64,000 nucleotides of DNA from positions 256,001 to 320,000 of the forward strand of contig OZ223264.1 of NCBI GenBank assembly GCA_965140585.1. The letters run 5' to 3'. The stretch is from Spirochaetia bacterium. GTDB taxonomy: Bacteria; Spirochaetota; Spirochaetia; UBA9216. Of the stretch, positions 4,274-49,522 are shown one piece after another. The notes under the pieces were generated by a model. The model ran no database searches, had not been told where the DNA came from, and was given only the letters and a program-made list of their open reading frames with translations. The translations under genes were made by a program, and so were the position numbers. Positions within the stretch are counted from its first letter, which is position 1, and every line of letters starts with the position of its first letter.

Positions 4274-5617
4274 ATGAAGTATGTAATAATCGGTGGTGAT
4301 GCTGCAGGTATGAGTGCCGCATCAAGACTTAAAAGAAGAGAACCTGAATCCGAGGTTATTGTTTTCGAAAAGACGATGGATGTTTCGTACAGTGCCTGCG
4401 GAATGCCGTATAATATAGCAAAACCGGAAGCTGCAATTGAAAGGCTGGTTGTGAGATCTGCTGAGGCTTTCAGAGACTCGCAGGGAATAGATCTCAGAAC
4501 CGGTCATGAAGTTACGGCTATCAACCGGAAAGATAAGATTGTATCGGGGAAAAACCATGAATCAGGAGATTTTGAATGCAGCTATGACAAACTGCTGATT
4601 GCAACCGGAGCAAGGGCTGCAATGCTTCCTGTTGAAGGTATAGATCTTGAAGGAGTCTTCAAACTTAAAACCCTTCAGGATGCAAGGGATATTAAATCTT
4701 ATCTTGCGGACGTTGAGGTTAAGACAGCCGTTCTTATAGGAATGGGGTATATAGCTCTTGAGATGGCAGAAGCTCTGCATGCACGAGGTATAAAGGTTGT
4801 TATGGTTAAACGCCGCGAGGGCCTGCTTCCCTGGATGCTCCCTGAACTTTCGGATGTATTAAGAAAATCGCTTACAGAAAAGGGCGTCGAGCTTAATGAC
4901 GGATATCCTGTTGAAAAAATAAGCGGGGAGCGCGGCCGTCTGACAGTTCATGCAGGGGGAAAGTCTTTCAGCGGTGAGATGGTTCTTGTCGCGATCGGAG
5001 TGGTTCCTGAGGCCGAACTTGCGAAGGCTGCCGGTTTGGAACTTGGAGCAGAAGGTGCTGTTTCAATCAATAAGAATATGCAGACCTCGGATCCTGATAT
5101 TTATTCTGCCGGAGACTGTGCAGACTGTCTCAGCATTGTAACAGGAAAGAAGATCTGGCTTCCTCTTGCACTTACTGCAAACAGGGGTGGACGTCTTGCT
5201 GCCGACAATATAATGGGAGAGGATGCTCCTTTTAACGGAATTGCAGGCACTGCGGTTTTTAAGGTCTTTGACTACGAGGTGGCAAAAACCGGAATTACTG
5301 TGGAGCAGGCGAAGGCTGCCGGTTATGATCCGGTTTATAAAGCAATTGTAGCAAAATCAAAGGCTCATGTTTTTGAAGGTGCGGCTGCGATTCATGTGGC
5401 TGTGATTGCCGATAAAGCCAGCGGTAAGATGCTTGGGGCTCAGATGACCGGAACTGATGGTGTAGCCAGACGTATAAACGCTGCTGCTGTTGCGGTGCAG
5501 GCGGGCCTTTCGGTCGCTGAATTTTATGAATCAGACCTTGCCTATGCTCCCCCTTTCAGCCCGGTATGGGATCCGCTGCTTACCGCAGCAAGTATGCTGC
5601 TCAAGAAAAAAGGTTAA
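4274..5617 (+). CDS. CoA-disulfide reductase / NADH oxidase family flavoprotein
   Basis: GGDAAG FAD motif; single redox Cys in 'SYSACGMPY'; C-terminal 'LAYAPPFSPVWDP'. Confidence 0.9.
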   Translation: MKYVIIGGDAAGMSAASRLKRREPESEVIVFEKTMDVSYSACGMPYNIAKPEAAIERLVVRSAEAFRDSQGIDLRTGHEVTAINRKDKIVSGKNHESGDFECSYDKLLIATGARAAMLPVEGIDLEGVFKLKTLQDARDIKSYLADVEVKTAVLIGMGYIALEMAEALHARGIKVVMVKRREGLLPWMLPELSDVLRKSLTEKGVELNDGYPVEKISGERGRLTVHAGGKSFSGEMVLVAIGVVPEAELAKAAGLELGAEGAVSINKNMQTSDPDIYSAGDCADCLSIVTGKKIWLPLALTANRGGRLAADNIMGEDAPFNGIAGTAVFKVFDYEVAKTGITVEQAKAAGYDPVYKAIVAKSKAHVFEGAAAIHVAVIADKASGKMLGAQMTGTDGVARRINAAAVAVQAGLSVAEFYESDLAYAPPFSPVWDPLLTAASMLLKKKG

Positions 5618-5623
5618 AAACTA

Positions 5624-7129
5624 TTAAATGTTGAAGAACAGCGTTACCGATGTTTCATCCAGGAACAGCTGTCCCTGGAGCTGGTCGGTTAATGCTGTAA
5701 TGATAATGCCGGATTGATCATCCTCGATGATCTTCCGGCAGTGATTGAGAATGTTTCTTGACGTGCGGATTTTCAACTGGGCAATATTATCATTAAGTAA
5801 AAATGTTGTGGATACCGGGCTTGTTTCGCAGCTTAGTTCGTTCTGAATCTTGAGAATTATGGTCAGCAGTTCATTTATCAGCATCGAAACGGCAATGGCC
5901 ACATCTGTATCGAGGTATATATAATCACAGTGTACCTCTATCTTTTGTGCCCAGGGATTTGCTGAATAAGAACTTGTTAAGTGTTTGATAATATCATCCA
6001 GATATGTCTGCATCTTTATCTTGTTTTTACTGTCGATTTTAACCATATTCTGATAAACCAGTGACAGTGTGTAGATCTGAATCTGTATTTCATTCATTAC
6101 AGAGGCAGCCGTTGCATCCTCTGTTGATCCCTGTTTGAGCGAAATAAGACTTGAGAGCATCTGCAGCTTGTTGTTTATCAGATGCTGTACTTCCTGATGT
6201 GCCAGAGCCTTCTCTTCTTCTATGTTGTCTCCTGATGGTTCAAGGCAGTTCTCTTTATTCTTTACAGTGTTTCTTTCTCTGATTATCCCCGCTGATCCCA
6301 GATTCTCAAATCCCGAGTCATTATTCTCCCATGAATGTCCGACTGCCGCCAGTTCGCCGTAGGAGGTAAGAGATACCTCAATACCACCCCCAATAGGAGC
6401 CTTCCTTTTCAGTCTTATTTGAAGGTCCTTTGTCATCCTGGGGCCGGTTCTTCTTTCATCAAACAGCTTGGGGGCTCTGTCATGGCCGGTAACCCGTCCT
6501 CTGAGAATAGGGAGGACCATATCTCTTGATACTTTTGAGACGTCATCAACAAAAAGGATTTCGGAGAAGTGCTTTCCTATCAGTTCCTGAGGCTCCCAGC
6601 CAAGGATCCTTACGGCATTATTTATGAAAGTAAAATTTCCTTCAGAATTAAGCACATATATAATATCGGGAAGGGCCTGTACTAGATGCATGTACTGCTT
6701 TTCGGTATTCTGAAGAAAGTAATTCTGCCGTTCAAGGCTTTCCCTGATGTTCAGTACCTTTTTAACCATGCTCATCAGGTAGCTGGTAAAGCCCGGTGAT
6801 CCGTTTCTAAGTATGAAGGTACTCGATTCATCTGTTATAACGTCATCAACAGGAAACAGATCTTCGGAATCGATCATGAGGATAAATGGTGTCGGCCACA
6901 GGGTGAGCCAGTCTACGAGGCTTCCGTTCTGATAACTGTAATCAGTTATAATAAGGGCAATCGGATATGTTGTGGTCAGTTCATCGAGTTCTTTCAGGCT
7001 CCTGGGGGTGAAAATGCGGTAGGGGAGATGGTTCTTCTCGATATATTCCCGTACTTCGTCCTGTTCTTTTTCAATTGAAGTGGCTAGTATCAGGTTCCTT
7101 TTCTGTTTTGTATCATCTATTTCAAGCAT
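5624..7129 (-). CDS. PAS-domain protein with degenerate REC and HisKA_2/HATPase domains
   Basis: PAS 'LVQALPDIIYVLNSEGNFTFIN'; HisKA_2-like 'EVQHLINNKLQMLSSLI'; ATP-binding boxes not recognisable. Confidence 0.75.
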   Translation of the reverse strand: MLEIDDTKQKRNLILATSIEKEQDEVREYIEKNHLPYRIFTPRSLKELDELTTTYPIALIITDYSYQNGSLVDWLTLWPTPFILMIDSEDLFPVDDVITDESSTFILRNGSPGFTSYLMSMVKKVLNIRESLERQNYFLQNTEKQYMHLVQALPDIIYVLNSEGNFTFINNAVRILGWEPQELIGKHFSEILFVDDVSKVSRDMVLPILRGRVTGHDRAPKLFDERRTGPRMTKDLQIRLKRKAPIGGGIEVSLTSYGELAAVGHSWENNDSGFENLGSAGIIRERNTVKNKENCLEPSGDNIEEEKALAHQEVQHLINNKLQMLSSLISLKQGSTEDATAASVMNEIQIQIYTLSLVYQNMVKIDSKNKIKMQTYLDDIIKHLTSSYSANPWAQKIEVHCDYIYLDTDVAIAVSMLINELLTIILKIQNELSCETSPVSTTFLLNDNIAQLKIRTSRNILNHCRKIIEDDQSGIIITALTDQLQGQLFLDETSVTLFFNI

Positions 7130-7176
7130 TCTGCTTAAATTATCTACAATCAGGAACCCGATATCAATTTATTCAA

Positions 7177-8382
7177 TCAATAAATATAACTAATTCCTGT
7201 ACTTACTGCGATTCTGCTGTATGTTTCGCCGGCTTCTGCAGTGAGCGCCCTGTCCCTTTCCCAGCTGAAGGTATCATCTCCGTCACCGGCGTTACTCAAC
7301 AGGTAGGCGAAGAGGGTAAATCCTTCAAAAACATTCCATCCGACTCCTGCTGTTATTTCTGCTGAGAGGTCTGCAGGGGAGAATACTGATCTGGCTGATA
7401 TGCTTAGAGTATCGCTTGGTGCATACACGATTTCCGGGTAGAGATAGACACCGTAAGCAGGTGCATCAGAGCCTGTTTCCCAGGGGGTCTCTTCAAAGTC
7501 ACCAAAGGGAGAGTAGAGTCCTTCAAGCCGGAAAGTTACAGTACTTATTGAGTTTATCTGCTGCATGTAGAAGATTCCGCCGCTCAAACTGAGGTTGTCT
7601 TTAAAGCTTTCGGTAAGTTCATCGCCTTCAACATCGGAAGATACTGCACTTCCGGCCGTCAGGTACCAGTCGGTGAACAGATTTCCCTGAAAGGAGACGT
7701 AAAACCGGTGTGCAGCATCTGTACTGCTTCCGCTGTAAAGATACCCGGCTTCAGTTTTGATATCCAGTACCTTCGTGTATATTCTGCCTCCGGCGGAAGC
7801 TGCCGCAATATCGCCGTAACTTATTCCGGCAACCGCTCCGGACACAGGATTTGTTATGAGGGAAGTTTCCGGCGTCAGGGCGACAGCTTCAATGAACGAG
7901 AAGCGGCCCAGCGGGACATTGACTGCTGTAAGCCAGGTTGTTTCAGTTCTGAGTTCATCGGCAGTCAAATCGACCGAAGTTCCGGTACTGCCGAACAGAA
8001 GATCTCCGGAATTGAACATGAAACCCTCACCCCAGCTGAGCCGGGTTTTCCCGGCTGTTATTCTGAACAGGGGGAAGCGTGCCTTCACGTAAGCTTTGTC
8101 GAGTGTAACAATCGGAAGGCTGTAGCCGAGGGTTGCCGCAAGCTCAGGGTAGTTGAAACTGAACTGCAGTTCAGACTTAACGTTGCGGTTGCCTTCCGAT
8201 TCAAATGAAAAGCCTCCGGCTCCGCTTGTCATCCAGGCCCAGTAATAATCATCCTCTGCTGCCGTGTCAGGAGTTCTGAATATGAGGTTGTTCACAGCCA
8301 TATCCAGTGTAAGGCTGCCCTCGGCGAAGATTGCCGCGGGCAGTACTAATATCAGAATAATGAAAACTGTTTTTTTTACCAT
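7177..8382 (-). CDS. Probable outer-membrane beta-barrel protein
   Basis: Signal peptide; 'LDKAYV...ITAGKTRLSWG' barrel-like segment; C-terminal aromatic strand 'GISYIY'. Confidence 0.65.
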   Translation of the reverse strand: MVKKTVFIILILVLPAAIFAEGSLTLDMAVNNLIFRTPDTAAEDDYYWAWMTSGAGGFSFESEGNRNVKSELQFSFNYPELAATLGYSLPIVTLDKAYVKARFPLFRITAGKTRLSWGEGFMFNSGDLLFGSTGTSVDLTADELRTETTWLTAVNVPLGRFSFIEAVALTPETSLITNPVSGAVAGISYGDIAAASAGGRIYTKVLDIKTEAGYLYSGSSTDAAHRFYVSFQGNLFTDWYLTAGSAVSSDVEGDELTESFKDNLSLSGGIFYMQQINSISTVTFRLEGLYSPFGDFEETPWETGSDAPAYGVYLYPEIVYAPSDTLSISARSVFSPADLSAEITAGVGWNVFEGFTLFAYLLSNAGDGDDTFSWERDRALTAEAGETYSRIAVSTGISYIY

Positions 8383-43257: not shown

Positions 43258-43325
43258 TGAATCCGGTAACAGCACAGCCTTTTCATGGTGTTCAATAGAT
43301 AGACAATGGAAAGGGACGGATTTCA

Positions 43326-43802
43326 TTGAAGATTGACGTAGAACAATTTTACAGAAAATACGGTCCCATGGTGTTCAGGCGCTGCAAATCGCTTCTAAAT
43401 GATGAAGATCGCGCTCATGACGCCATGCAGGAAGTATTTGTGAAGGTACTCAGAAAAGCAGACTCACTTAACGACAGAGCTCCATCAAGCCTTCTGTATA
43501 CTATAGCAACAAATGTCTGTCTTAATGAACTCCGTAAAGTCAACCGTCTTGTAGACAGCGGTAATGAGATAATTGAAACCGTTGCAGGGACTGAAAGTCA
43601 TGAGAGAATAGTACTGACAAACCATTTTCTTGAACAGCTTTTCAGTCTTGAAAAAGAATCTACAAGAACAATGGCTGTGCTGCATTATGTTGAGGGTTAT
43701 ACCCTTGAAGAAACAGCACGTGTTATGAACATGTCCGTTTCCGGTGTCCGAAAAAGGCTAAGAGGCCTCCGTGAGAGGGGTCTTGCGCTTAAGGAGGAAT
43801 AA
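43326..43802 (+). CDS. ECF RNA polymerase sigma factor
   Basis: Region 2 'AHDAMQEVFVKV...LYTIATNVCLN'; region 4 'EGYTLEETA'; TTG start. Confidence 0.92.
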   Translation: MKIDVEQFYRKYGPMVFRRCKSLLNDEDRAHDAMQEVFVKVLRKADSLNDRAPSSLLYTIATNVCLNELRKVNRLVDSGNEIIETVAGTESHERIVLTNHFLEQLFSLEKESTRTMAVLHYVEGYTLEETARVMNMSVSGVRKRLRGLRERGLALKEE

Positions 43803-43805
43803 TCT

Positions 43806-44597
43806 ATGAAACCTGGAAAGCTGTTTCTTGAGCAATACAAACTGGGCGAACTGACAGATGAAGAAAAAAAGCAGTTCGAAGACAGTTTTGAAGATCCGAA
43901 TGAACTTGAAAGACTCCTGAGAGAACTGGATGACTCAGATAAAGATTTCTTTAAAAAATTTCCCGTAGATGAGACAGTCGATTCAATAAAGGAAAGAAGT
44001 GAACAAAGCAAAGGCTCAAAGATTCTGAAGTTTCCGGTTTTCCGGATTTCAGCCCTTGCAGCCGCTGCAGCGGTTGTTATATTCGGCTTCAGCTTCTTTT
44101 ACTCTCCTGTGAGCACAGGAGGCACAGGCTCGACTCCGGATGTAAATGCAACTGAAAGAATTAAGGGCATGAAGCCCTCTCTTAAAATATACCGGAGCCT
44201 CAGCGGTTCTGCTGAAATCCTTGAAAACAGGGATACCGTTGCCGAAAAGGATCTTCTGCAGATTGAATACATTGCCGGCGGCTACAGGTACGGCATGATT
44301 TTTTCAATTGACGGACGGGGTACTGTTACCATGCACTATCCCTCATACAGCGGAATAAAACCAGAGCTCGATAACAACGGGGCTGTTCTTCTACCGTATG
44401 CCTATGAGCTTGATGATGCTCCGGAATTTGAAAGATTCTTCTTTATAGCCGGAGGAGACTGGTTCAATGCCGATGAAGTTCTTGACGCAGCTTATGAGCT
44501 GGCTTCATCAAACAGTTCGGCAAGACGTAGTTTTCTTGATATCCCTGAAGAATACTACCAGACAACAATCTTATTAAAGAAGGGGGCTGAAAGATGA
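43806..44597 (+). CDS. Putative membrane anti-sigma factor with extracytoplasmic DUF4384-like domain
   Basis: N-terminal 'LEQYKLGEL' ASD-like helix without Zn ligands; one TM; 'SIDGRG...LHYP'-like and 'LDDAPEFERFF' domain. Confidence 0.7.
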   Translation: MKPGKLFLEQYKLGELTDEEKKQFEDSFEDPNELERLLRELDDSDKDFFKKFPVDETVDSIKERSEQSKGSKILKFPVFRISALAAAAAVVIFGFSFFYSPVSTGGTGSTPDVNATERIKGMKPSLKIYRSLSGSAEILENRDTVAEKDLLQIEYIAGGYRYGMIFSIDGRGTVTMHYPSYSGIKPELDNNGAVLLPYAYELDDAPEFERFFFIAGGDWFNADEVLDAAYELASSNSSARRSFLDIPEEYYQTTILLKKGAER

Positions 44598-47032
44598 AAA
44601 GCCTTGTAAAAGATGTCCTGAAGAAGATGCTTCTTCAGATAAGTATAATCGGATTTATATGCCTGCTTTTTCTTGTATCAGCGGCTGGCGCTTCTGCACA
44701 AACCTCAGTTATGAGAAGATACGCAGTTTATGTAGGCTCCAATTACGGCGGTCACGAAAGAGTAACCCTTTCATACGCTGTAACTGATGCAAGGGCTCTT
44801 TCTGATGTTATGCAGCGGCTCGGCGGTGTAATGCCTGCCGACGGTATTGTTTTAACAGATCCGTCACCGGCCCTGCTTAAAGATACAATTTCCACCCTTA
44901 AAAGAAATGTAAGCAATGATACAGAAGTAAAACGTTCAGAATTCTTCTTCTATTATTCAGGCCATTCAGATGAAAAGGGCCTTCTGCTCGGCGATTCGGT
45001 TATGAAGTATGAAGATCTTAAGGAACTTATTGATTCTGTCGGTGCTGATGTAAATATTGCAGTTCTCGACTCCTGCTCATCAGGAGCTTTCACCCGAATG
45101 AAGGGTGGTGTAAGAAGATCCCCCTTTCTATCCGATGAATCAGTGGACGCTTCAGGACACGCCTTCCTGACTTCAAGTTCGGAAGATGAAGCGGCTCAGG
45201 AATCTGATGATCTCGGTGCCTCTTTTTTCACACATTATTTAATCACTGCGCTCAGGGGCGCTGCCGACAGTACCTTTGACGGTACTGTAACTCTGAATGA
45301 AGCATACTCGTATGCCGCTTCTGAAACCCTGGCCAGAACAGAAGATACCCTTGCCGGCCCCCAGCATCCTTCATATGATATCCAGCTTGCCGGAACCGGA
45401 GAACTTATCCTTACCGATCTGCGGGAAGTTTCCGAGCAGATTATGTTTGAAAAAAACCTCCGCGGCCGGATTTTTGTCCGTGACAGCGCAGGACGCCTTG
45501 TTGTTGAGCTGAAAAAAATAGAGGGTGCTCCGCTTGCTGTTTCAATTGCACCAGGCCGATACTCAATGATTCTTGACGACGGCGATCAGCTGCTTTCCGC
45601 AGACCTGATGCTTTCCGGCGGAGCCAAGGTTATTGTACAGAAAGATGAGTTTTACCCGGTTCCGGGCAAGGTTACAACATCGCGCGGCGGAACTTTCGTA
45701 GCAGTTGATACCGTTCCCGCTCCGGCGTTGACTGAAGAACCTGCTTCTGTAAACGGTGAAGATGATATTTCCCGTACAGCCTCTGAGCTGGATGAAATTG
45801 CAGAACGTGCACGGAGAAGGGCGCTTGAAGCCGCCGGCATGAGTGAAAGCACCGGGGGAGCTTCCATTAACGATACAGAAGAAACCGTTTTAATTAACGT
45901 TCAGCGTGAAACCGGAGATGCTTATATTGCTGCATCAGACAGCTCCTCTACTGCTTCTTCTGACAGAGAAAAAGCCCCTGATTATGATCCTGCTAAATTT
46001 TCACTCGGCTTTGTTGCATCAGAGAAAGATGTATCAGGTATACAACTGGGGCTTATTGGTGCGACTACTGAAAAAAGCATGAAGGGCTTTCAGATTGGCG
46101 GAATATTTGCAGAGTCATCAGGAACTGTTGACGGTTTTCAAATAGGCGGCATATTCAGTTCCGCTGATGATAATGTGGACGGTTTTCAGATTTCAGGTAT
46201 ATGGAATGCCACAGAAATGGATGTAATGGGTGCACAGATATCCGGCATATGGAACTCTGCAAGGGATGTTGCCTTCCTGCAGGCTGCCGGAATCTTTAAT
46301 GTTGCAGAACGTGATGTCAGAGGTCTTCAGCTTTCAGGTATATTCAATATTGCAGAGGGCAATGTTTACGGAGCTCAGGGTGCAGGTATTTTCAACGTAG
46401 CTGAGAATGTCAATGGTTTTCAGGCAGGACTTTTCAACTTCGGCGGAAAGGTTTACGGGCTCCAGGTCGGTCTTGTCAATATCAGCGATGAGCTCTACGG
46501 ACTGCCCATAGGTCTTATAAATATCAGCGGAAACGGACTGAACGATGTTTCATTCTCCTGGGATGATCTTGGATTTGGAAACATCAGCTACCAGCTTGGA
46601 ACCTCTTCAGTTTATACATTTATGAACTTTGGATATCACAGTGAAACTCCCGAGCTTGCATCTACGCTAGGCCTTGGAATGGGACTGGAAATCGGCGGTG
46701 AAAGACTTTATTTTGACATGGACATCTATGCCAAGGCTGTAGGATACGGTATGGGCAGCGTAGAAAATAATGTTAAGAGTGTTTTTGAGGGTACTGCGGA
46801 CTATTATCCTGCAGCAAGATTAAGCGGCGGATTCAAGCTCTTTGGTTCAATGTCTATATTCGCCGGAGTGAACTGGGACTTTCATCTCTTCGGAAACGAA
46901 AGCGGTTACAGCTACGACCTCGGTTCAAGCATATCTTCATTCAATTCAGGCCAGCCTATGATGCAGGTTGATTTCGACAGCTATAATACAATGGAAGTTT
47001 TTCCATCCTTTTTTCTTGGGGTCAGGCTTTAG
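44594..47032 (+). CDS. Exported caspase-family (C14) protease with repeat region and C-terminal beta-barrel-like domain
   Basis: Signal peptide; catalytic His124 'YYSGH' and Cys161 'LDSC'; repeats; C-terminus 'FFLGVRL'. Confidence 0.88.
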   Translation: MKSLVKDVLKKMLLQISIIGFICLLFLVSAAGASAQTSVMRRYAVYVGSNYGGHERVTLSYAVTDARALSDVMQRLGGVMPADGIVLTDPSPALLKDTISTLKRNVSNDTEVKRSEFFFYYSGHSDEKGLLLGDSVMKYEDLKELIDSVGADVNIAVLDSCSSGAFTRMKGGVRRSPFLSDESVDASGHAFLTSSSEDEAAQESDDLGASFFTHYLITALRGAADSTFDGTVTLNEAYSYAASETLARTEDTLAGPQHPSYDIQLAGTGELILTDLREVSEQIMFEKNLRGRIFVRDSAGRLVVELKKIEGAPLAVSIAPGRYSMILDDGDQLLSADLMLSGGAKVIVQKDEFYPVPGKVTTSRGGTFVAVDTVPAPALTEEPASVNGEDDISRTASELDEIAERARRRALEAAGMSESTGGASINDTEETVLINVQRETGDAYIAASDSSSTASSDREKAPDYDPAKFSLGFVASEKDVSGIQLGLIGATTEKSMKGFQIGGIFAESSGTVDGFQIGGIFSSADDNVDGFQISGIWNATEMDVMGAQISGIWNSARDVAFLQAAGIFNVAERDVRGLQLSGIFNIAEGNVYGAQGAGIFNVAENVNGFQAGLFNFGGKVYGLQVGLVNISDELYGLPIGLINISGNGLNDVSFSWDDLGFGNISYQLGTSSVYTFMNFGYHSETPELASTLGLGMGLEIGGERLYFDMDIYAKAVGYGMGSVENNVKSVFEGTADYYPAARLSGGFKLFGSMSIFAGVNWDFHLFGNESGYSYDLGSSISSFNSGQPMMQVDFDSYNTMEVFPSFFLGVRL
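46031..46540 (+). repeat. About 11 tandem 14-16 aa G-x-Q-x-x-G-x-x-N repeats (LA_2272-like)
   Basis: GFQIGGIF, GFQISGIWN, GAQISGIWN, GLQLSGIFN, GLQVGLVN and similar. Confidence 0.8.
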
Positions 47033-47059
47033 TAAGCATCACTCAATCAGTTATTTATC

Positions 47060-47090
47060 AGGCTCCGCTATACCGGCGGAGCCTTTCTTT
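47060..47090 (+). terminator. Intrinsic terminator closing the ECF-caspase operon
   Basis: AGGCTCCGCT/GGCGGAGCCT stem plus TTCTTT. Confidence 0.75.
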
Positions 47091-47161
47091 ACTTCAAATT
47101 TACATAACTTTCTTTCCAAATCTGCTCATCCCGGTATAAAATCAAATATTGGAGAGTCAAA

Positions 47162-48484
47162 ATGTCTGAATTTAAACTTGGTTCAAGAGATAAAGTTACC
47201 CTGGGACTGATGGTCCTAATGTCCTTCTTCTTGCAATGCGATCTTTATATTACACCTGCCATCGTTCCCGAGCTTGCTGCAGAATACGGTGTTCCAAATG
47301 CCTCCATCAGTTATGTTGCTTCGGCTTTCACTTTACTCGGGGCGGCTCTGAGTATCATATTCGGATACTTTTCAGATAAATCTGCGAGAAAGCAGCTGCT
47401 TATGGCTGTTGTTCTTATAGGCGAGATTCCCTGCTTCCTGACCGGTATAAAGTTTTTCACTGCCAGCTTTCAGGGGTATGTAATAATGAGAATTCTTACC
47501 GGCATTGGTGTTGGGGGTATCTATCCTCTACTTTTCAGCCTCGTTTCAGATTACTTCACCGACAGGCACCGGGCAAAAGCTGTTGCATTTATTGATATAG
47601 CCTGGGGACTTGGAACAATGGTCGGCCCCATTATGGCAAATATAGGCCTGTCTTCCGGCTACGGCTGGCGGCTTGCGTTCATACTTGCAGCAGTCCCCAA
47701 CTTCCCGGTTGTGCTGCTATTCGGATTGATAGCCCGCTCTCCGGAACGCGGTTCATCTGAGAAGGCTCTGGCGGAAGCGCTTCATTCTGGTGCTGAATAC
47801 AACCATAAAATCAAGCTTTCTGATTTCAGGCATGTGCTTAAAAAGCGGACAAACCTTTTTCTGTTTCTACAGGGAATTCCAGGAACCATCCCCTGGGGAA
47901 TTCTTACCTTCTGGGTTATTACATTTTTCAGGGAGACTCAGGGAATGGGGCAGGCCGAAGCAACCCTCATATGGGAGCTGTTTGGTGTTGGCGTTGTAAC
48001 CGGAGGCCTTTTCTGGGCTTTTATCGGTGATAAGCTTTTTTCAAAAAAGCCTTCATACCTTCCGCTTCTGTGTACAATCGGAATAATGGCAGGAACTATT
48101 CCCTGCTTTATATTCTTCAATATTCCTTTTTCATCACCGGTTATTGTAATGGCTTTAAGTCTGCTGGGAGGAGCCTGTATTGCCACCGCTTCAAGCAATA
48201 ACAAGGCTATGCTGATGAATGTGAACCGACCTGAGCACCGCGGTTCGGTCTTTGCGGTTTTTAATCTTACAGATAATATTGGAAAGGGCTTCGGGCCTGC
48301 TATCGGCGGTGCGGTACTCGCCGCAACATCAAGCTACGGACTGATGGTGAATATGGCAATCAGTTTCTGGTTCCTCTGCAGCCTTCTTTTTATAGGTGTT
48401 ATTTTTTCCATTAACAAAGACCGGAAAGAGATGCTTGAGCTGATGGAAGAACGCGGCCGTGAGCTTAAGGCAGAATTGAAATAA
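47162..48484 (+). CDS. MFS transporter
   Basis: 'FGYFSDKSARK' motif A; about 12 TM helices. Confidence 0.9.
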   Translation: MSEFKLGSRDKVTLGLMVLMSFFLQCDLYITPAIVPELAAEYGVPNASISYVASAFTLLGAALSIIFGYFSDKSARKQLLMAVVLIGEIPCFLTGIKFFTASFQGYVIMRILTGIGVGGIYPLLFSLVSDYFTDRHRAKAVAFIDIAWGLGTMVGPIMANIGLSSGYGWRLAFILAAVPNFPVVLLFGLIARSPERGSSEKALAEALHSGAEYNHKIKLSDFRHVLKKRTNLFLFLQGIPGTIPWGILTFWVITFFRETQGMGQAEATLIWELFGVGVVTGGLFWAFIGDKLFSKKPSYLPLLCTIGIMAGTIPCFIFFNIPFSSPVIVMALSLLGGACIATASSNNKAMLMNVNRPEHRGSVFAVFNLTDNIGKGFGPAIGGAVLAATSSYGLMVNMAISFWFLCSLLFIGVIFSINKDRKEMLELMEERGRELKAELK

Positions 48485-49157
48485 TTAGCGGGGCAATCAG
48501 TACTGTAACCAGTCCCGCCATCCCGATTGCAAGGCTGCTCATTGCTCCCTCTGTTTCGCCCAGCTCCAGGGCTCTGGAGGTTCCTATAGCGTGAGCGGCC
48601 GTTCCCATTGCAATGCCCCTGGATGTCGCGTTTCTGATTTTAAGGATTCCAAGCAGACCGGGGCCTATGATTGCTCCCAGAATTCCTGTGATGATTACCG
48701 AGAGGGCTGTAATTGACGGCAGCCCCCCGATCCCTGCGGAGATTTCCACGGCAATCGGCGTTGTGACAGATTTGGGAACAAGTGAAAGCATCAGTTCTTC
48801 AGGCAGGCCAAACACTTTTGAAAGCAGAATTACGCTGAATATTGATGTTACTGAACCGGCAAATATGCCAGTAATAAGAATTACAGCATGTCTTTTTAGA
48901 ATATGAAACTGTCTGTACAGGGGCACTGCAAGTGATACTGTTGCTGGAATAAGCATGAAAGAAATTATTGTTCCGCCGCGCTGATAGTTTTCAAGCGATA
49001 TTCCTGTCAGAAACAGAAATATAATGATAAATGCAGAACCGGTTATGACCGGATGCAGAAAAGAGATAGAGAACTTAAGGTAGATTGCTCTGGCCAGGGT
49101 ATAGGCAGCAAGTGTTATTGTTATTCCGAAAAGCGGTGAAGAAAAAAATGCTTCCAT
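48465..49157 (-). CDS. lrgB: LrgB/CidB family protein
   Basis: 'PKSVTTPIA'; 'AAHAIGTSRA'. Confidence 0.92.
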   Translation of the reverse strand: MEAFFSSPLFGITITLAAYTLARAIYLKFSISFLHPVITGSAFIIIFLFLTGISLENYQRGGTIISFMLIPATVSLAVPLYRQFHILKRHAVILITGIFAGSVTSIFSVILLSKVFGLPEELMLSLVPKSVTTPIAVEISAGIGGLPSITALSVIITGILGAIIGPGLLGILKIRNATSRGIAMGTAAHAIGTSRALELGETEGAMSSLAIGMAGLVTVLIAPLIISILP

Positions 49158-49522
49158 CAGCTTTTATCCTTCTTGGCGGAAAGTCTGAAAAGCAGGCTGA
49201 CTGTAAGGGCTGTCACTGCCATGGTGAGTACAGTTGAAATAATCACAATCAGGCTGATCTTCAGTCCGTATTTTCCAAGTATCTCGGTTTCTTTCATAAG
49301 ATTGATGATAAGAGGTATAAAAAAAAGCGGAAGAGATGCCGTGAAAAAATCTGCTGCCCTATGAATCTTTTTAAGATCGAGAATCCCGGTAACAAGCAGA
49401 ACCGCCATTATCAGCATGCCGGCAACAGGTCCCGGAAATGGAAAGCCGGGGATTAGTGATGCAAGCATACCCGCAGCAGCGATAGTGAATATAATAAAAA
49501 TTTCTGTAAGGATGTTAAGCAT
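49157..49522 (-). CDS. cidA: CidA/LrgA family protein
   Basis: 'PFPGPVAGML'; 'LPLFFIP'; precedes lrgB. Confidence 0.85.
   Translation of the reverse strand: MLNILTEIFIIFTIAAAGMLASLIPGFPFPGPVAGMLIMAVLLVTGILDLKKIHRAADFFTASLPLFFIPLIINLMKETEILGKYGLKISLIVIISTVLTMAVTALTVSLLFRLSAKKDKS

What the first reader, a model, noticed from the sequence alone, without database searches (positions are those of the whole stretch)
43326..47090. ECF sigma / anti-sigma / exported caspase operon: candidate protease-triggered signalling system
Seen: three coupled genes (3-bp gap, then ATGA overlap) closed by a terminator, encoding an ECF sigma, a single-TM protein with an ASD-like N-terminus and an extracytoplasmic domain, and a signal-peptide-bearing C14 protease with an intact His124/Cys161 dyad. 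Established: ECF sigmas are released by anti-sigma proteolysis, and a caspase-fold protease controls a sigma factor in type III-E CRISPR (Csx29/Csx30). Inference: a CRISPR-independent cascade in which an outer-membrane caspase senses a surface cue and cleaves the anti-sigma. I recall similar gene triads in myxobacteria but know of no mechanistic description.
Basis: partly seen in the sequence, partly recalled or inferred. Interest (0 to 1): 0.82.

Follow-up and report, generated by a model that had tools for sequence, protein, structure and literature searches.

The report
Sigma factor, anti-sigma, periplasmic caspase operon
This spirochete operon pairs a stress-type sigma factor and its membrane inhibitor with a caspase-like protease tethered to the outer membrane, and a short motif shared by inhibitor and protease suggests, without proof, that the protease cuts the inhibitor to switch the sigma factor on.

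Summary
Three coupled genes (3-bp gap, ATGA overlap, terminator) encode an ECF sigma, a single-pass anti-sigma-like protein with a DUF4384-like periplasmic beta-sandwich, and an 812-aa exported C14 protease with an invariant His124/Cys161 dyad.

The triad is strongly co-conserved. It stands in order in 69 of 80 genome loci found with the anti-sigma, across Spirochaetota, Myxococcota, Aminicenantes, Fermentibacteria and others. It also stands in 35 of 36 further loci. No fourth gene is conserved. A conserved ECF-type promoter, GT(A/G)ACA-N16-GTGTT, precedes the sigma gene.

The protease model has five parts: a metacaspase-like domain, an Ig-like domain, a roughly 100-residue disordered linker, a beta-helix and a C-terminal 8-stranded OmpA-like barrel. 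By barrel topology the caspase domain should face the periplasm, not the cell surface.

The anti-sigma carries T-R-x-K-G at the border between linker and domain, about 20 residues past the membrane helix. The protease carries T-R-x-K-G-G in the disordered loop after Cys161. K-G is kept in 106 of 107 anti-sigmas and 100 of 101 proteases. The single exception has R-G in both.

I read this as a dedicated site-1 protease. It is plausible and untested. I found no paper describing it. Earlier notes of this scan report the same triad on other genomes.

The parts
43266..43293 (+). ECF-type promoter, GTAACA-N16-GTGTTC, 32 nt upstream of the sigma start codon
   Evidence: Exact hit. A related motif, G[TG][AGT][ATC]C[AG]-N15-17-[GT]TGTT, occurs in the 150 nt upstream of sigma in 55 of 70 related loci. 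Controls: 9 of 70 for the reverse complement and 0 of 70 for a coding stretch. Use by this sigma is inferred.
43326..43802 (+). ECF (group 4) sigma-70 factor, 158 aa, TTG start conserved in close relatives
   Evidence: Pfam Sigma70_r2 1.7e-15 and r4_2 6.3e-7. TIGR02937 68.6 bits, cut-off 42.9. 57-97% identical orthologues lie upstream of the anti-sigma in related loci.
43806..44015 (+). Anti-sigma N-terminal helical domain (residues 1-70), cytoplasmic, with no Cys or His, so not zinc-binding
   Evidence: AF2 helices 5-70 at pLDDT 82-96. NCBIfam anti-sigma models match this region in 20 of 29 homologues (best E 1.8e-10) and in P0002 itself at E 8.6e-4, all below curated cut-offs.
44040..44093 (+). 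Single transmembrane helix of the anti-sigma (residues 79-96)
   Evidence: AF2 helix 79-96. The sequence is hydrophobic, FRISALAAAAAVVIFGFS.
44157..44168 (+). R118-I-K120-G121, candidate site-1 cleavage motif at the border between the disordered linker (99-118) and the folded periplasmic domain
   Evidence: K120 and G121 are invariant and R118 is at least 90% conserved in A1. K-G is kept in 106 of 107 unique loci; the one exception has R-G together with R-G in its caspase. Median distance from the membrane helix end to K is 20 residues. Linker pLDDT is below 50.
44166..44582 (+). Periplasmic beta-sandwich (residues 121-259), DUF4384-like
   Evidence: AF2 pLDDT 79-96. PF14326 matches 16 of 29 homologues, best 27.1 bits against a cut-off of 27, but not P0002 itself. 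The fold is Ig/macroglobulin-like at Z up to 9.4.
44594..44698 (+). Signal peptide of the protease (residues 1-35, cleavage predicted after A33-S34-A35)
   Evidence: Read from the sequence. AF2 helix 2-34. No dedicated predictor was run.
44705..45418 (+). Caspase/metacaspase (C14) domain, residues 38-275, with His124 (44963-44965) and Cys161 (45074-45076)
   Evidence: Pfam PF00656. VIA matches: Yca1 Z 14.3, AtMC4 Z 13.8, MALT1 Z 13.4. Foldseek: MALT1 at E 4.7e-4. The dyad aligns with AtMC4 His86/Cys139. The dyad is invariant.
45089..45109 (+). F-T-R168-M-K170-G-G loop motif, 5-11 residues after Cys161; candidate autoprocessing site
   Evidence: R168, K170, G171 and G172 are invariant in A3. 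The motif lies in a low-confidence loop, 163-196. K-G is kept in 100 of 101 caspases.
45437..45661 (+). Ig-like beta-sandwich following the caspase domain (residues 282-356); conserved with it in all phyla
   Evidence: AF2 strands 282-356 at pLDDT 91-94. The 'mid' HMM matches every full caspase ORF. Foldseek top hits are MALT1 caspase-Ig3 constructs.
45674..45979 (+). Variable, mostly disordered linker (residues 361-462) with one helix (391-413)
   Evidence: pLDDT 30-58. The region is poorly aligned among homologues.
45983..46534 (+). Beta-helix built of LA_2272-type G-x-Q-x-G-x-x-N repeats (residues 464-647)
   Evidence: NCBIfam NF047436 at 50.3 bits, cut-off 25. VIA: 3p4g Z 18.6, rmsd 1.9, 186 aligned; also TPS and autotransporter beta-helices.
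46535..47032 (+). C-terminal 8-stranded OmpA-like outer-membrane beta-barrel (residues 648-812) and stop codon; ends in F-F-L-G-V-R-L
   Evidence: VIA: OprF N-terminal barrel 4rlc Z 15.9, rmsd 2.3, 121 aligned. Also matches a designed 8-strand barrel, NspA, OmpW, PagL, OprH and OmpA. pLDDT 88-97.
47060..47094 (+). Intrinsic-terminator-like hairpin and T-rich tail closing the operon
   Evidence: 10 pairs, 7 G-C, loop 5. Sequence shown.

Best explanation
This is a self-contained, autoregulated envelope signalling module of three proteins.

Shown or strongly supported:
- The genes encode an ECF sigma and a single-pass anti-sigma. The anti-sigma has a cytoplasmic helical N-domain, a disordered juxtamembrane linker and a DUF4384-like periplasmic beta-sandwich.
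- The third gene encodes an exported metacaspase-like C14 protease with an intact His/Cys dyad.
- In this organism the protease is tethered to the outer membrane by a beta-helix and an 8-stranded barrel, through a linker of about 100 disordered residues.
- The three genes travel together across several phyla behind a conserved ECF-type promoter.

Inferred:
- The caspase domain lies in the periplasm.
- It is a zymogen that processes itself at T-R-x-K|G-G in the loop after Cys161, as type II metacaspases and orthocaspases do after Lys or Arg.
- Once active, it acts as the dedicated site-1 protease. It cuts the anti-sigma after Lys120 in the matching T/E-R-x-K|G motif, about 20 residues outside the membrane.
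- The shortened anti-sigma then becomes a substrate for the genome's RseP-type site-2 protease. The sigma is freed and transcribes its own operon, giving positive feedback, and possibly other genes.

Unknown: the activating signal. Candidates are envelope perturbation that changes how far the tethered protease reaches or how it clusters, or Ca2+. These are guesses.
For: 1. Co-conservation. All 15 class relatives with a caspase match and available upstream sequence have sigma and anti-sigma directly upstream. 69 of 80 genome-contig loci found with the anti-sigma hold all three in order, and 3 of the other 11 are cut by contig ends. 35 of 36 further loci hold all three. Only these three gene clusters recur around the locus.

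2. Shared motif. The anti-sigma consensus is T-R-[ILV]-K-G and the caspase loop consensus is T-R-x-K-G-G. K-G is kept in 106 of 107 and 100 of 101 unique loci. The only exception, L073, has R-G in both proteins. Five loci of one clade lack the P3 Arg in both.

3. Both motifs lie in predicted flexible segments: the anti-sigma linker 99-118 and the caspase loop 163-196, both at pLDDT below 50. The anti-sigma motif lies about 30 residues upstream of where the Pfam DUF4384 model starts to match in homologues.

4. Metacaspase character. The D-S-C-x-S-G and Y-S-G-H motifs align with AtMC4 Cys139 and His86. Fold matches include Yca1, AtMC4 and MALT1. From recall, these are Arg/Lys-specific enzymes.

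5. One RseP-type M50 protease is present in the genome.

6. DUF4384 is recurrently tied to caspases. It is the fifth most common accessory domain of cyanobacterial orthocaspases (Table 1 of PMC8283722). It also forms one group of Csx30 C-terminal domains, the substrate of the Csx29 protease.

7. Precedent. DdvA of M. xanthus is an anti-sigma with a periplasmic caspase-fold CHAT domain. It is proposed to cut its own linker before RseP acts (PMC11506125, passages).

8. The promoter motif is conserved in 55 of 70 loci.
Against: - No cleavage, binding or expression experiment exists.
- The K-to-R co-change is a single event, and L073 is among the more divergent caspases, with 6 deviations in 63 near-invariant columns.
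- The P3 Arg is not coupled overall. 10 loci keep it only in the caspase and 5 only in the anti-sigma.
- K-G could be structural in both proteins.
- Some Archangiaceae have sigma and anti-sigma followed by a TPR protein with no caspase (5 loci). Others have an anti-sigma-like protein plus caspase with no adjacent sigma (3 loci).
- One relative (L020) keeps sigma and anti-sigma beside a decayed caspase gene. So the pair can persist without the protease.
- The only robust promoter hit in the genome is the operon itself: 7 strict hits against 4 for the reversed control. That fits the protease being an output as well as it fits an input.
- The N-domain's anti-sigma assignment rests on sub-threshold family matches.
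Confidence: 0.5

Rival explanations
1. The caspase is mainly the output of the sigma, not its trigger. The DUF4384-like domain senses an envelope cue. General periplasmic proteases and RseP release the sigma. The sigma then raises production of an outer-membrane-tethered periplasmic protease that degrades damaged or foreign envelope proteins, much as sigmaE induces DegP.
For: The protease is co-transcribed from the sigma's own conserved promoter. A strict genome scan finds no other convincing target promoter: 7 hits against 4 control hits. Sigma/anti-sigma pairs of this family exist without a caspase.
Against: It does not explain why the anti-sigma carries the protease's own loop motif in an exposed linker. 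It does not explain the joint K-to-R change in L073. It does not explain why the protease stays glued to this anti-sigma family across phyla while its C-terminal anchor varies. It is also compatible with the main reading as a feedback loop.
Confidence: 0.25
2. The anti-sigma's periplasmic domain is a bound pseudo-substrate, inhibitor or monitor of the protease. It holds or reports on the caspase. Sigma release follows when the caspase is titrated away by real substrates or misfolds. This would be partner switching, not cleavage.
For: DUF4384 is often fused to caspase and other protease domains, which suggests a protease-interaction module. The shared motif could equally be a docking or pseudo-substrate element. 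The sandwich resembles macroglobulin-type domains only weakly, at Z about 8.
Against: There is no evidence of binding. Motifs in disordered segments with an invariant basic residue followed by Gly fit a scissile site better than a stable interface. The fold similarity lies within the range the tool calls common.
Confidence: 0.15
3. It is an anti-phage or programmed-death module like DdvS/DdvA or the CRISPR-linked caspase-sigma cascades, with the sigma switching on immune or suicide genes.
For: Caspase-fold proteases that control sigma factors are so far known from defence contexts.
Against: The flanking genes here are topoisomerase IV-like subunits, an MFS transporter, LrgAB and an inositol monophosphatase. 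No defence or cas genes flank the operon. No further gene is conserved next to the triad in 80 loci. The module sits in the envelope.
Confidence: 0.05

Closest known systems
[quoted passage not shown]
   Same: An ECF sigma is held by a single-pass anti-sigma. A periplasmic caspase-fold His/Cys protease faces a flexible juxtamembrane linker. Site-1-like cleavage followed by RseP is proposed but not yet shown.
   Different: Here the protease is a separate, exported C14 (metacaspase-like) protein, not a CHAT domain fused to the anti-sigma. There is no TPR scaffold and no zinc-binding N-domain. The anti-sigma sensor is a small DUF4384-like sandwich. There is no defence island. The protease is tethered to the outer membrane.
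E. coli sigmaE-RseA-DegS-RseP regulated intramembrane proteolysis (recalled textbook system; general RIP description read in PMC11506125)
   Same: A periplasmic site-1 protease cuts the anti-sigma outside the membrane. A site-2 M50 protease, present here, then frees the sigma. The stub length of about 20-24 residues is of the same order as RseA's (recalled).
   Different: The site-1 protease would be a cysteine protease of clan CD encoded in the sigma operon itself, not a PDZ serine protease. There is no RseB-like partner. The signal is unknown.
Type III-E Craspase (Cas7-11-Csx29 cleaving Csx30, which holds RpoE with Csx31) and the type III-B SAVED-CHAT to PCaspase to sigma cascade (bioRxiv 10.1101/2022.08.17.504292 and 10.1101/2023.06.23.546230, passages)
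   Same: A caspase-fold protease cuts a linker in a sigma-sequestering protein. One group of Csx30 C-terminal domains is DUF4384.
   Different: Those systems are cytoplasmic and are triggered by target RNA or cyclic oligoadenylate within CRISPR loci. This one is in the envelope, has a membrane anti-sigma, and has no CRISPR or cas genes nearby.
FecI/FecR/FecA-type cell-surface signalling (recalled; PMC11637429 seen in a search listing only)
   Same: A three-gene layout of sigma, single-pass anti-sigma and an outer-membrane protein that would talk to the anti-sigma's periplasmic domain.
   Different: The outer-membrane partner is an 8-stranded barrel carrying a protease, not a TonB-dependent transducer. 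The anti-sigma is not FecR-like.
Type II metacaspases and orthocaspases (AtMC4; Microcystis orthocaspase, recalled)
   Same: The same fold and dyad motifs. Lys/Arg-directed autoprocessing in a linker after the catalytic Cys would match the T-R-x-K-G-G loop.
   Different: This protein is exported, tethered to the outer membrane and genetically bound to a sigma/anti-sigma pair. Its specificity and autoprocessing have not been tested.

Membership tests
ECF (group 4) sigma-70 factors | Sigma-2 and sigma-4 regions only, small size | tested here: met
   PF04542 at 1.7e-15 over residues 8-74. PF08281 at 6.3e-7 over residues 118-146. TIGR02937 at 68.6 bits against a cut-off of 42.9. Length 158 aa.
Class I transmembrane anti-sigma factors | N-terminal helical anti-sigma domain that binds the cognate sigma | tested here: inconclusive
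   AF2 predicts helices at 5-70. NCBIfam NF052375 matches 20 of 29 homologues and PRK13920 matches 15 of 29, with best E values of 1.8e-10 and 1.6e-11. P0002 itself scores E 8.6e-4. All are far below the curated cut-offs. A profile of the N-domain found no solved relative. Binding was not tested.
Class I transmembrane anti-sigma factors | Single transmembrane helix, gene directly downstream of the sigma | tested here: met
   Helix 79-96. 3-bp gap after the sigma gene.
Zinc-binding anti-sigma (ZAS) | H-x3-C-x2-C zinc motif | tested here: not met
   Residues 1-78 contain no Cys or His. One of 29 homologues touches zf-HC2 at E 0.049.
DUF4384 (PF14326) | Match to the Pfam model at its gathering score | tested here: inconclusive
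   P0002 has no match at E up to 1. 16 of 29 homologues match, best E 4.5e-6. The one at 27.1 bits just reaches the cut-off of 27 and the others shown lie below it.
Peptidase C14 (caspase/metacaspase/orthocaspase) | Caspase-hemoglobinase fold with a catalytic His and Cys | tested here: met
   PF00656 at 34.6 bits against a cut-off of 21.4. Fold matches: Yca1 Z 14.3, AtMC4 Z 13.8, MALT1 Z 13.4. His124 and Cys161 align with AtMC4 His86 and Cys139. Both are invariant in 41 of 41 sequences.
Metacaspase/orthocaspase subtype | Cleavage after Arg/Lys and autoprocessing | not testable with these tools
   The D-S-C-x-S-G motif and the invariant basic loop motif are consistent with this. No assay was possible.
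OmpA-like 8-stranded outer-membrane beta-barrels | 8-stranded antiparallel barrel at a terminus, hydrophobic or aromatic C-terminal signal | tested here: met
   Model residues 647-812 against 4rlc: Z 15.9, rmsd 2.3, 121 aligned. Also matches OmpW, NspA, PagL, OprH and OmpA. C-termini end in L, I, F, V or Y in 11 homologues. Membrane insertion and topology were not testable.
Regulated intramembrane proteolysis systems | Site-2 (M50) protease available; signal-dependent site-1 cut | tested here: inconclusive
   One PF02163 gene is present at 176.9 bits. The site-1 cut is only inferred from the motif.
DdvA-type anti-sigma | TPR-CHAT domain fused to the anti-sigma | tested here: not met
   The periplasmic part is a beta-sandwich of about 140 residues. 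The protease is a separate gene.
CRISPR-associated caspase-sigma cascades (Craspase, SAVED-CHAT/PCaspase) | Location in a type III CRISPR-Cas locus, cytoplasmic proteins | tested here: not met
   Both partners are exported or membrane proteins. The eight flanking genes scanned are housekeeping or transport genes. The rest of the window was not scanned for cas genes.

The most novel reading that the evidence does not exclude
A widespread, CRISPR-independent bacterial caspase signalling pathway. A periplasmic metacaspase-like zymogen is tethered to the outer membrane by a long flexible leash in spirochetes and myxobacteria. It autoprocesses at T-R-x-K|G-G and then cuts an inner-membrane anti-sigma at the same motif. 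The distance or integrity between the two membranes, or clustering of the protease, is thereby converted into transcription. This would give bacterial C14 proteases their first defined physiological substrate and cleavage site.
Probability: 0.25. Interest if true: 0.85.

Novelty: new variant of a known kind. Interest (0 to 1): 0.68.

Why it matters
Bacterial caspase homologues are abundant, but almost none has a known substrate or role outside CRISPR-linked defence. This module offers a concrete, cheaply testable pair: one protease, one membrane substrate, one candidate scissile bond (Lys120-Gly121) and one reporter promoter. It occurs in thousands of sequences: at least 2,991 protein clusters at E up to 1e-10 among the 8,000 candidates scored. 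It spans several phyla.

If confirmed, it would add a cysteine-protease branch to anti-sigma proteolysis. It would support the still unproven DdvA model. It would also suggest that the caspase-sigma link seen in type III CRISPR systems was borrowed from, or shares ancestry with, a housekeeping envelope pathway.

Tried and rejected
- Complex prediction of caspase 38-372 with anti-sigma 97-263 gave no answer (score 0.00, mark 0.32). It counts neither for nor against binding.
- Foldseek of the anti-sigma model against the PDB found nothing at E up to 0.001.
- A sequence profile of the whole anti-sigma and one of its N-domain found no solved relative.
- phmmer of the protease against PDB sequences found nothing. 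Only the family profile reached metacaspases.
- Profile-profile comparison of the protease family with the anti-sigma family found no shared domain (probability 0.2). So the protease's Ig-like domain is not detectably a DUF4384.
- The search for longer, fused forms of the anti-sigma found none. The tool itself calls this weak evidence.
- Regulon prediction with the strict promoter pattern gave 7 genome hits against 4 for the reversed control. I therefore claim no target besides the operon.
- Coupling of the P3 Arg between the two motifs was rejected as general evidence: 81 loci have it in both, 5 in neither, 15 are discordant, and the 5 belong to one clade.
- RNA evidence is thin. One metatranscriptome run (X3) holds a 165-nt contig over 43732-43855, which crosses the sigma/anti-sigma junction but has 8 differences and so comes from a relative. 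It also holds a 231-nt contig over 46753-46982. DNA can be present in such libraries, so this shows neither transcription nor an operon transcript. Parts without cover mean nothing.
- Literature searches found no description of the triad. The main text of the ECF reclassification (PMC7826278) has 0 occurrences of caspase, C14, DUF4384 or peptidase. Its supplementary group descriptions could not be seen and may list this genomic context.
- The 'ActD' lead from an earlier scan note could not be checked. No paper in the listing shown has actD (0 occurrences in all 10 rows), and source names of homologues are only 'caspase family protein' or 'hypothetical'.

Full report
**Observation.** The window holds three same-strand ORFs at 43326-43802, 43806-44597 and 44594-47032. 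The sigma gene ends with TAA at 43800-43802 and the next gene starts at 43806 behind an AAGGAGGA ribosome site. The second and third genes overlap as ATGA. A 10-pair hairpin with a T-rich tail follows at 47060-47094.

The first product is an ECF sigma: Sigma70_r2 at 1.7e-15, r4_2 at 6.3e-7, and TIGR02937 above its cut-off. The third matches Peptidase_C14 above the Pfam cut-off. The second has no Pfam match of its own and only weak anti-sigma matches in NCBIfam, E 8.6e-4 over residues 8-98. Each of the two genes searched, the anti-sigma and the protease, is single-copy in the 4.85-Mb genome. The flanking genes are topoisomerase IV-like subunits, an MFS transporter, LrgAB and an inositol monophosphatase. 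No defence or cas genes flank the operon.

**Co-conservation.** Of 41 genomes of the same class, G000 included, 20 have a match to the protease, and 9 of 10 in the same family do. In all 15 fetched loci with a caspase-domain match and upstream sequence (L003-L014, L016-L018), sigma and anti-sigma homologues lie directly upstream in the same order.

A scan of species-representative genomes with the anti-sigma alignment found more than 513 relatives and kept 80 loci. These come from Spirochaetota (including Leptospirales and Treponemataceae), Myxococcota, Aminicenantes, Fermentibacteria, Chitinispirillaceae and MAGs labelled Eubacteriales or Clostridia. All three genes stand in order in 69 of the 80. 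The other 11 break down as follows:
- 3 are cut by contig ends (L031, L047, L049).
- 5 Archangium or Vitiosangium loci have sigma and anti-sigma followed by something other than a caspase. Pfam scanning of one of them, L086, shows a TPR protein.
- 3 loci (L085, L093, L095) have an anti-sigma-like gene plus caspase with no sigma upstream. In L085 the upstream gene is a divergent B12-binding protein gene.

A further sample of 401 genomes of the phylum of one myxobacterial hit gave 117 genomes with the anti-sigma. Of 36 loci fetched hold all three genes; five of these are places already seen. Clustering all flanking ORFs of the 80 loci shows that only the three genes recur. The next cluster consists of antisense shadow ORFs. 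One class relative (L020) keeps sigma and anti-sigma beside a decayed caspase gene.

**The anti-sigma.** AlphaFold2 with 29 homologues (mean pLDDT 83) gives:
- helices at 5-70;
- a membrane helix at 79-96;
- a disordered stretch at 99-118;
- a beta-sandwich at 121-259.

The N-domain matches NCBIfam anti-sigma models in 20 of 29 homologues, best E 1.8e-10 and below curated cut-offs. It has no Cys or His, so it is not a zinc-binding anti-sigma domain. The sandwich is DUF4384-like. 16 of 29 homologues match PF14326, and one just reaches the gathering score. One homologue is named a DUF4384 protein by UniRef. Its fold is a generic Ig/macroglobulin-type sandwich, Z up to 9.4.

**The protease.** AlphaFold2 with 41 homologues (mean pLDDT 81) and a fold search without Foldseek resolve these parts:
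- a signal-peptide helix;
- a caspase domain at 38-275 (Yca1 Z 14.3, AtMC4 Z 13.8, MALT1 Z 13.4);
- an Ig-like sandwich at 282-356;
- a disordered linker at 361-462;
- a beta-helix of LA_2272-type repeats at 464-647 (3p4g Z 18.6);
- an 8-stranded barrel at 648-812 (OprF N-domain Z 15.9, rmsd 2.3 over 121 residues; also OmpW, NspA, PagL, OprH and OmpA).

Foldseek's best hits are MALT1 caspase-Ig3 constructs, E 4.7e-4. A family profile aligns Y-S-G-H and D-S-C-x-S-G with His86 and Cys139 of Arabidopsis metacaspase-4. His124 and Cys161 are invariant.

In known outer-membrane proteins both ends of an 8-stranded barrel lie in the periplasm (established knowledge, recalled). The domains upstream of the barrel, the caspase included, should therefore be periplasmic. 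The beta-helix and barrel are missing from the shorter (510-670 aa) proteases of Aminicenantes and some other lineages, while the caspase and Ig-like domains are always present. The conserved core is therefore sigma, anti-sigma and an exported caspase-Ig protein.

**Shared motif.** The anti-sigma alignment has invariant Lys120 and Gly121 and nearly invariant Arg118 at the border between the disordered linker and the sandwich. The protease alignment has invariant Arg168, Lys170, Gly171 and Gly172 in the low-confidence loop that follows Cys161.

Across 107 unique loci the consensus is T-R-[ILV]-K-G in the anti-sigma and T-R-x-K-G-G in the protease. K-G is present in 106 of 107 anti-sigmas and 100 of 101 proteases. 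The one exception is the same locus, L073, with R-G in both. That genome has three paralogous systems, and only this one carries the change. The L073 protease also has unique changes at two other near-invariant positions, S210G and T249S. It is generally divergent, however, with 6 deviations in 63 near-invariant columns.

Loss of the P3 Arg coincides in five loci of one clade but is discordant in 15 others, so I do not count it. The Lys lies a median of 20 residues beyond the membrane helix. It also lies about 30 residues before the point where the Pfam DUF4384 model begins to match.

Metacaspases and orthocaspases cut after Lys or Arg and autoprocess in a linker after the catalytic Cys (recalled; reference titles seen). 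The simplest reading is that both motifs are substrates of the same active site.

**Promoter.** Upstream of the sigma gene lies GTAACA-N16-GTGTTC at 43266-43293. A degenerate form of this motif occurs upstream of sigma in 55 of 70 loci across phyla. It occurs in 9 of 70 reverse-complement controls and 0 of 70 coding controls. This fits ECF autoregulation. A strict scan of the genome gave 7 hits against 4 for the reversed control, so no further target is claimed. An RseP-type protease is present.

**Mechanism.** My best reading, at confidence about 0.5, has four steps:
1. An exported, periplasmic metacaspase-like zymogen is tethered to the outer membrane in this organism.
2. It autoprocesses at T-R-x-K|G-G.
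3. It then acts as a dedicated site-1 protease, cutting the anti-sigma after Lys120.
4. RseP then cuts the shortened anti-sigma. The released sigma then transcribes its own operon.

The gene content, domain architecture, conservation, motif statistics and promoter conservation are shown. The topology, the cleavage, the order of events and the trigger are inferred.

Rivals:
- The protease is mainly the sigma's output (0.25).
- The sandwich domain is a bound pseudo-substrate or monitor of the protease (0.15).
- It is a defence module (0.05).

Evidence against the main reading is listed in full in its own section. In short: there is a single joint change, natural sigma/anti-sigma pairs exist without the protease, and no experiment has been done.

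**Comparison with known systems.** The nearest system is DdvS/DdvA of M. xanthus. There a caspase-fold CHAT domain fused to the anti-sigma is proposed, not shown, to cut its own linker before RseP acts (PMC11506125, abstract and passages). Type III-E and III-B CRISPR cascades use caspase-fold proteases to free sigma factors in the cytoplasm, and some Csx30 substrates end in a DUF4384 domain. DUF4384 is also a frequent accessory domain of cyanobacterial orthocaspases. The present module differs in four ways: the protease is a separate C14 enzyme, it is periplasmic and tethered to the outer membrane, there is no link to CRISPR or a defence island, and the sensor domain is small.

**Novelty.** I found no paper describing it. 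Supplementary tables of the ECF reclassification could not be read and may list the genomic context. Earlier notes of this scan report the same triad, and in two cases the same shared motif, on at least 16 other genomes. I reached the motif before reading them, but they are not independent evidence. I class it as a new variant of a known kind. It is real, widespread, unstudied and directly testable.

Noticed in passing
L070, L074, L084, L086, L087 (about 4450-6600) and L085, L093, L095 (about 4900-8100): In Archangium and Vitiosangium the module occurs split. One locus type has sigma and DUF4384-type anti-sigma followed by a TPR protein, a small ORF and a second ECF sigma. Another has an anti-sigma-like gene plus caspase with no sigma; in L085 a divergent B12-binding protein gene lies upstream. 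This hints at cross-talk in trans.
   Followed up: partly
L020:1500-2000: A class relative keeps intact sigma and anti-sigma genes, with Y-R-I-K-G-G. The caspase gene is reduced to two short frames that match residues about 70-90 and the extreme C-terminus of the barrel. It looks like a decayed gene.
   Followed up: partly
L113, L114, L116 (one 12-Mb genome, G041): Three paralogous sigma/anti-sigma/caspase operons sit in one genome, each with its own motif pair: R-D-K-G with T-R-I-K-G-G, R-L-R-G with R-A-R-G-G, and R-V-K-s-G-G with T-R-V-K-G-A. This could be used to test insulation between paralogues.
   Followed up: partly
window 43266-43293 and related loci: The two promoter elements are partly reverse complements of each other: GTAACA(C) and (G)TGTTA(C), 16 nt apart. 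The conserved element could therefore also be read as an inverted repeat for a dimeric regulator. The 9 of 70 reverse-complement control hits come from this symmetry.
   Followed up: no
L033:7398-9527, L064:4941-5876, L066:8255-9355: Some loci carry extra downstream ORFs that match only the protease's Ig-like 'mid' domain (Aminicenantes) or only its repeat and barrel part (a Leptospirales MAG).
   Followed up: no
G000 loci L103 and L108: Two of the strict promoter-pattern hits elsewhere in the genome lie just upstream of genes. One is an 89-aa protein with two predicted membrane helices, 10 nt downstream. The other is a 481-aa exported protein, 55 nt downstream. They are not distinguishable from chance here.
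   Followed up: partly
G000 loci L146 and L147: The genome has two further Peptidase_C14 genes, one of them in an open frame of 1,101 aa. They are unrelated in context to this operon.
   Followed up: no
window 48465-49522 (- strand): An LrgA/LrgB (holin-like/antiholin-like) gene pair lies about 1.4 kb downstream on the opposite strand. It is conserved only in the closest relatives' loci, so it is probably unrelated.
   Followed up: no
L029:935-1413 and L076:5762-8123: In one locus the sigma gene, and in another the caspase gene, is split into two overlapping frames. This could be a frameshift or an assembly error.
   Followed up: no
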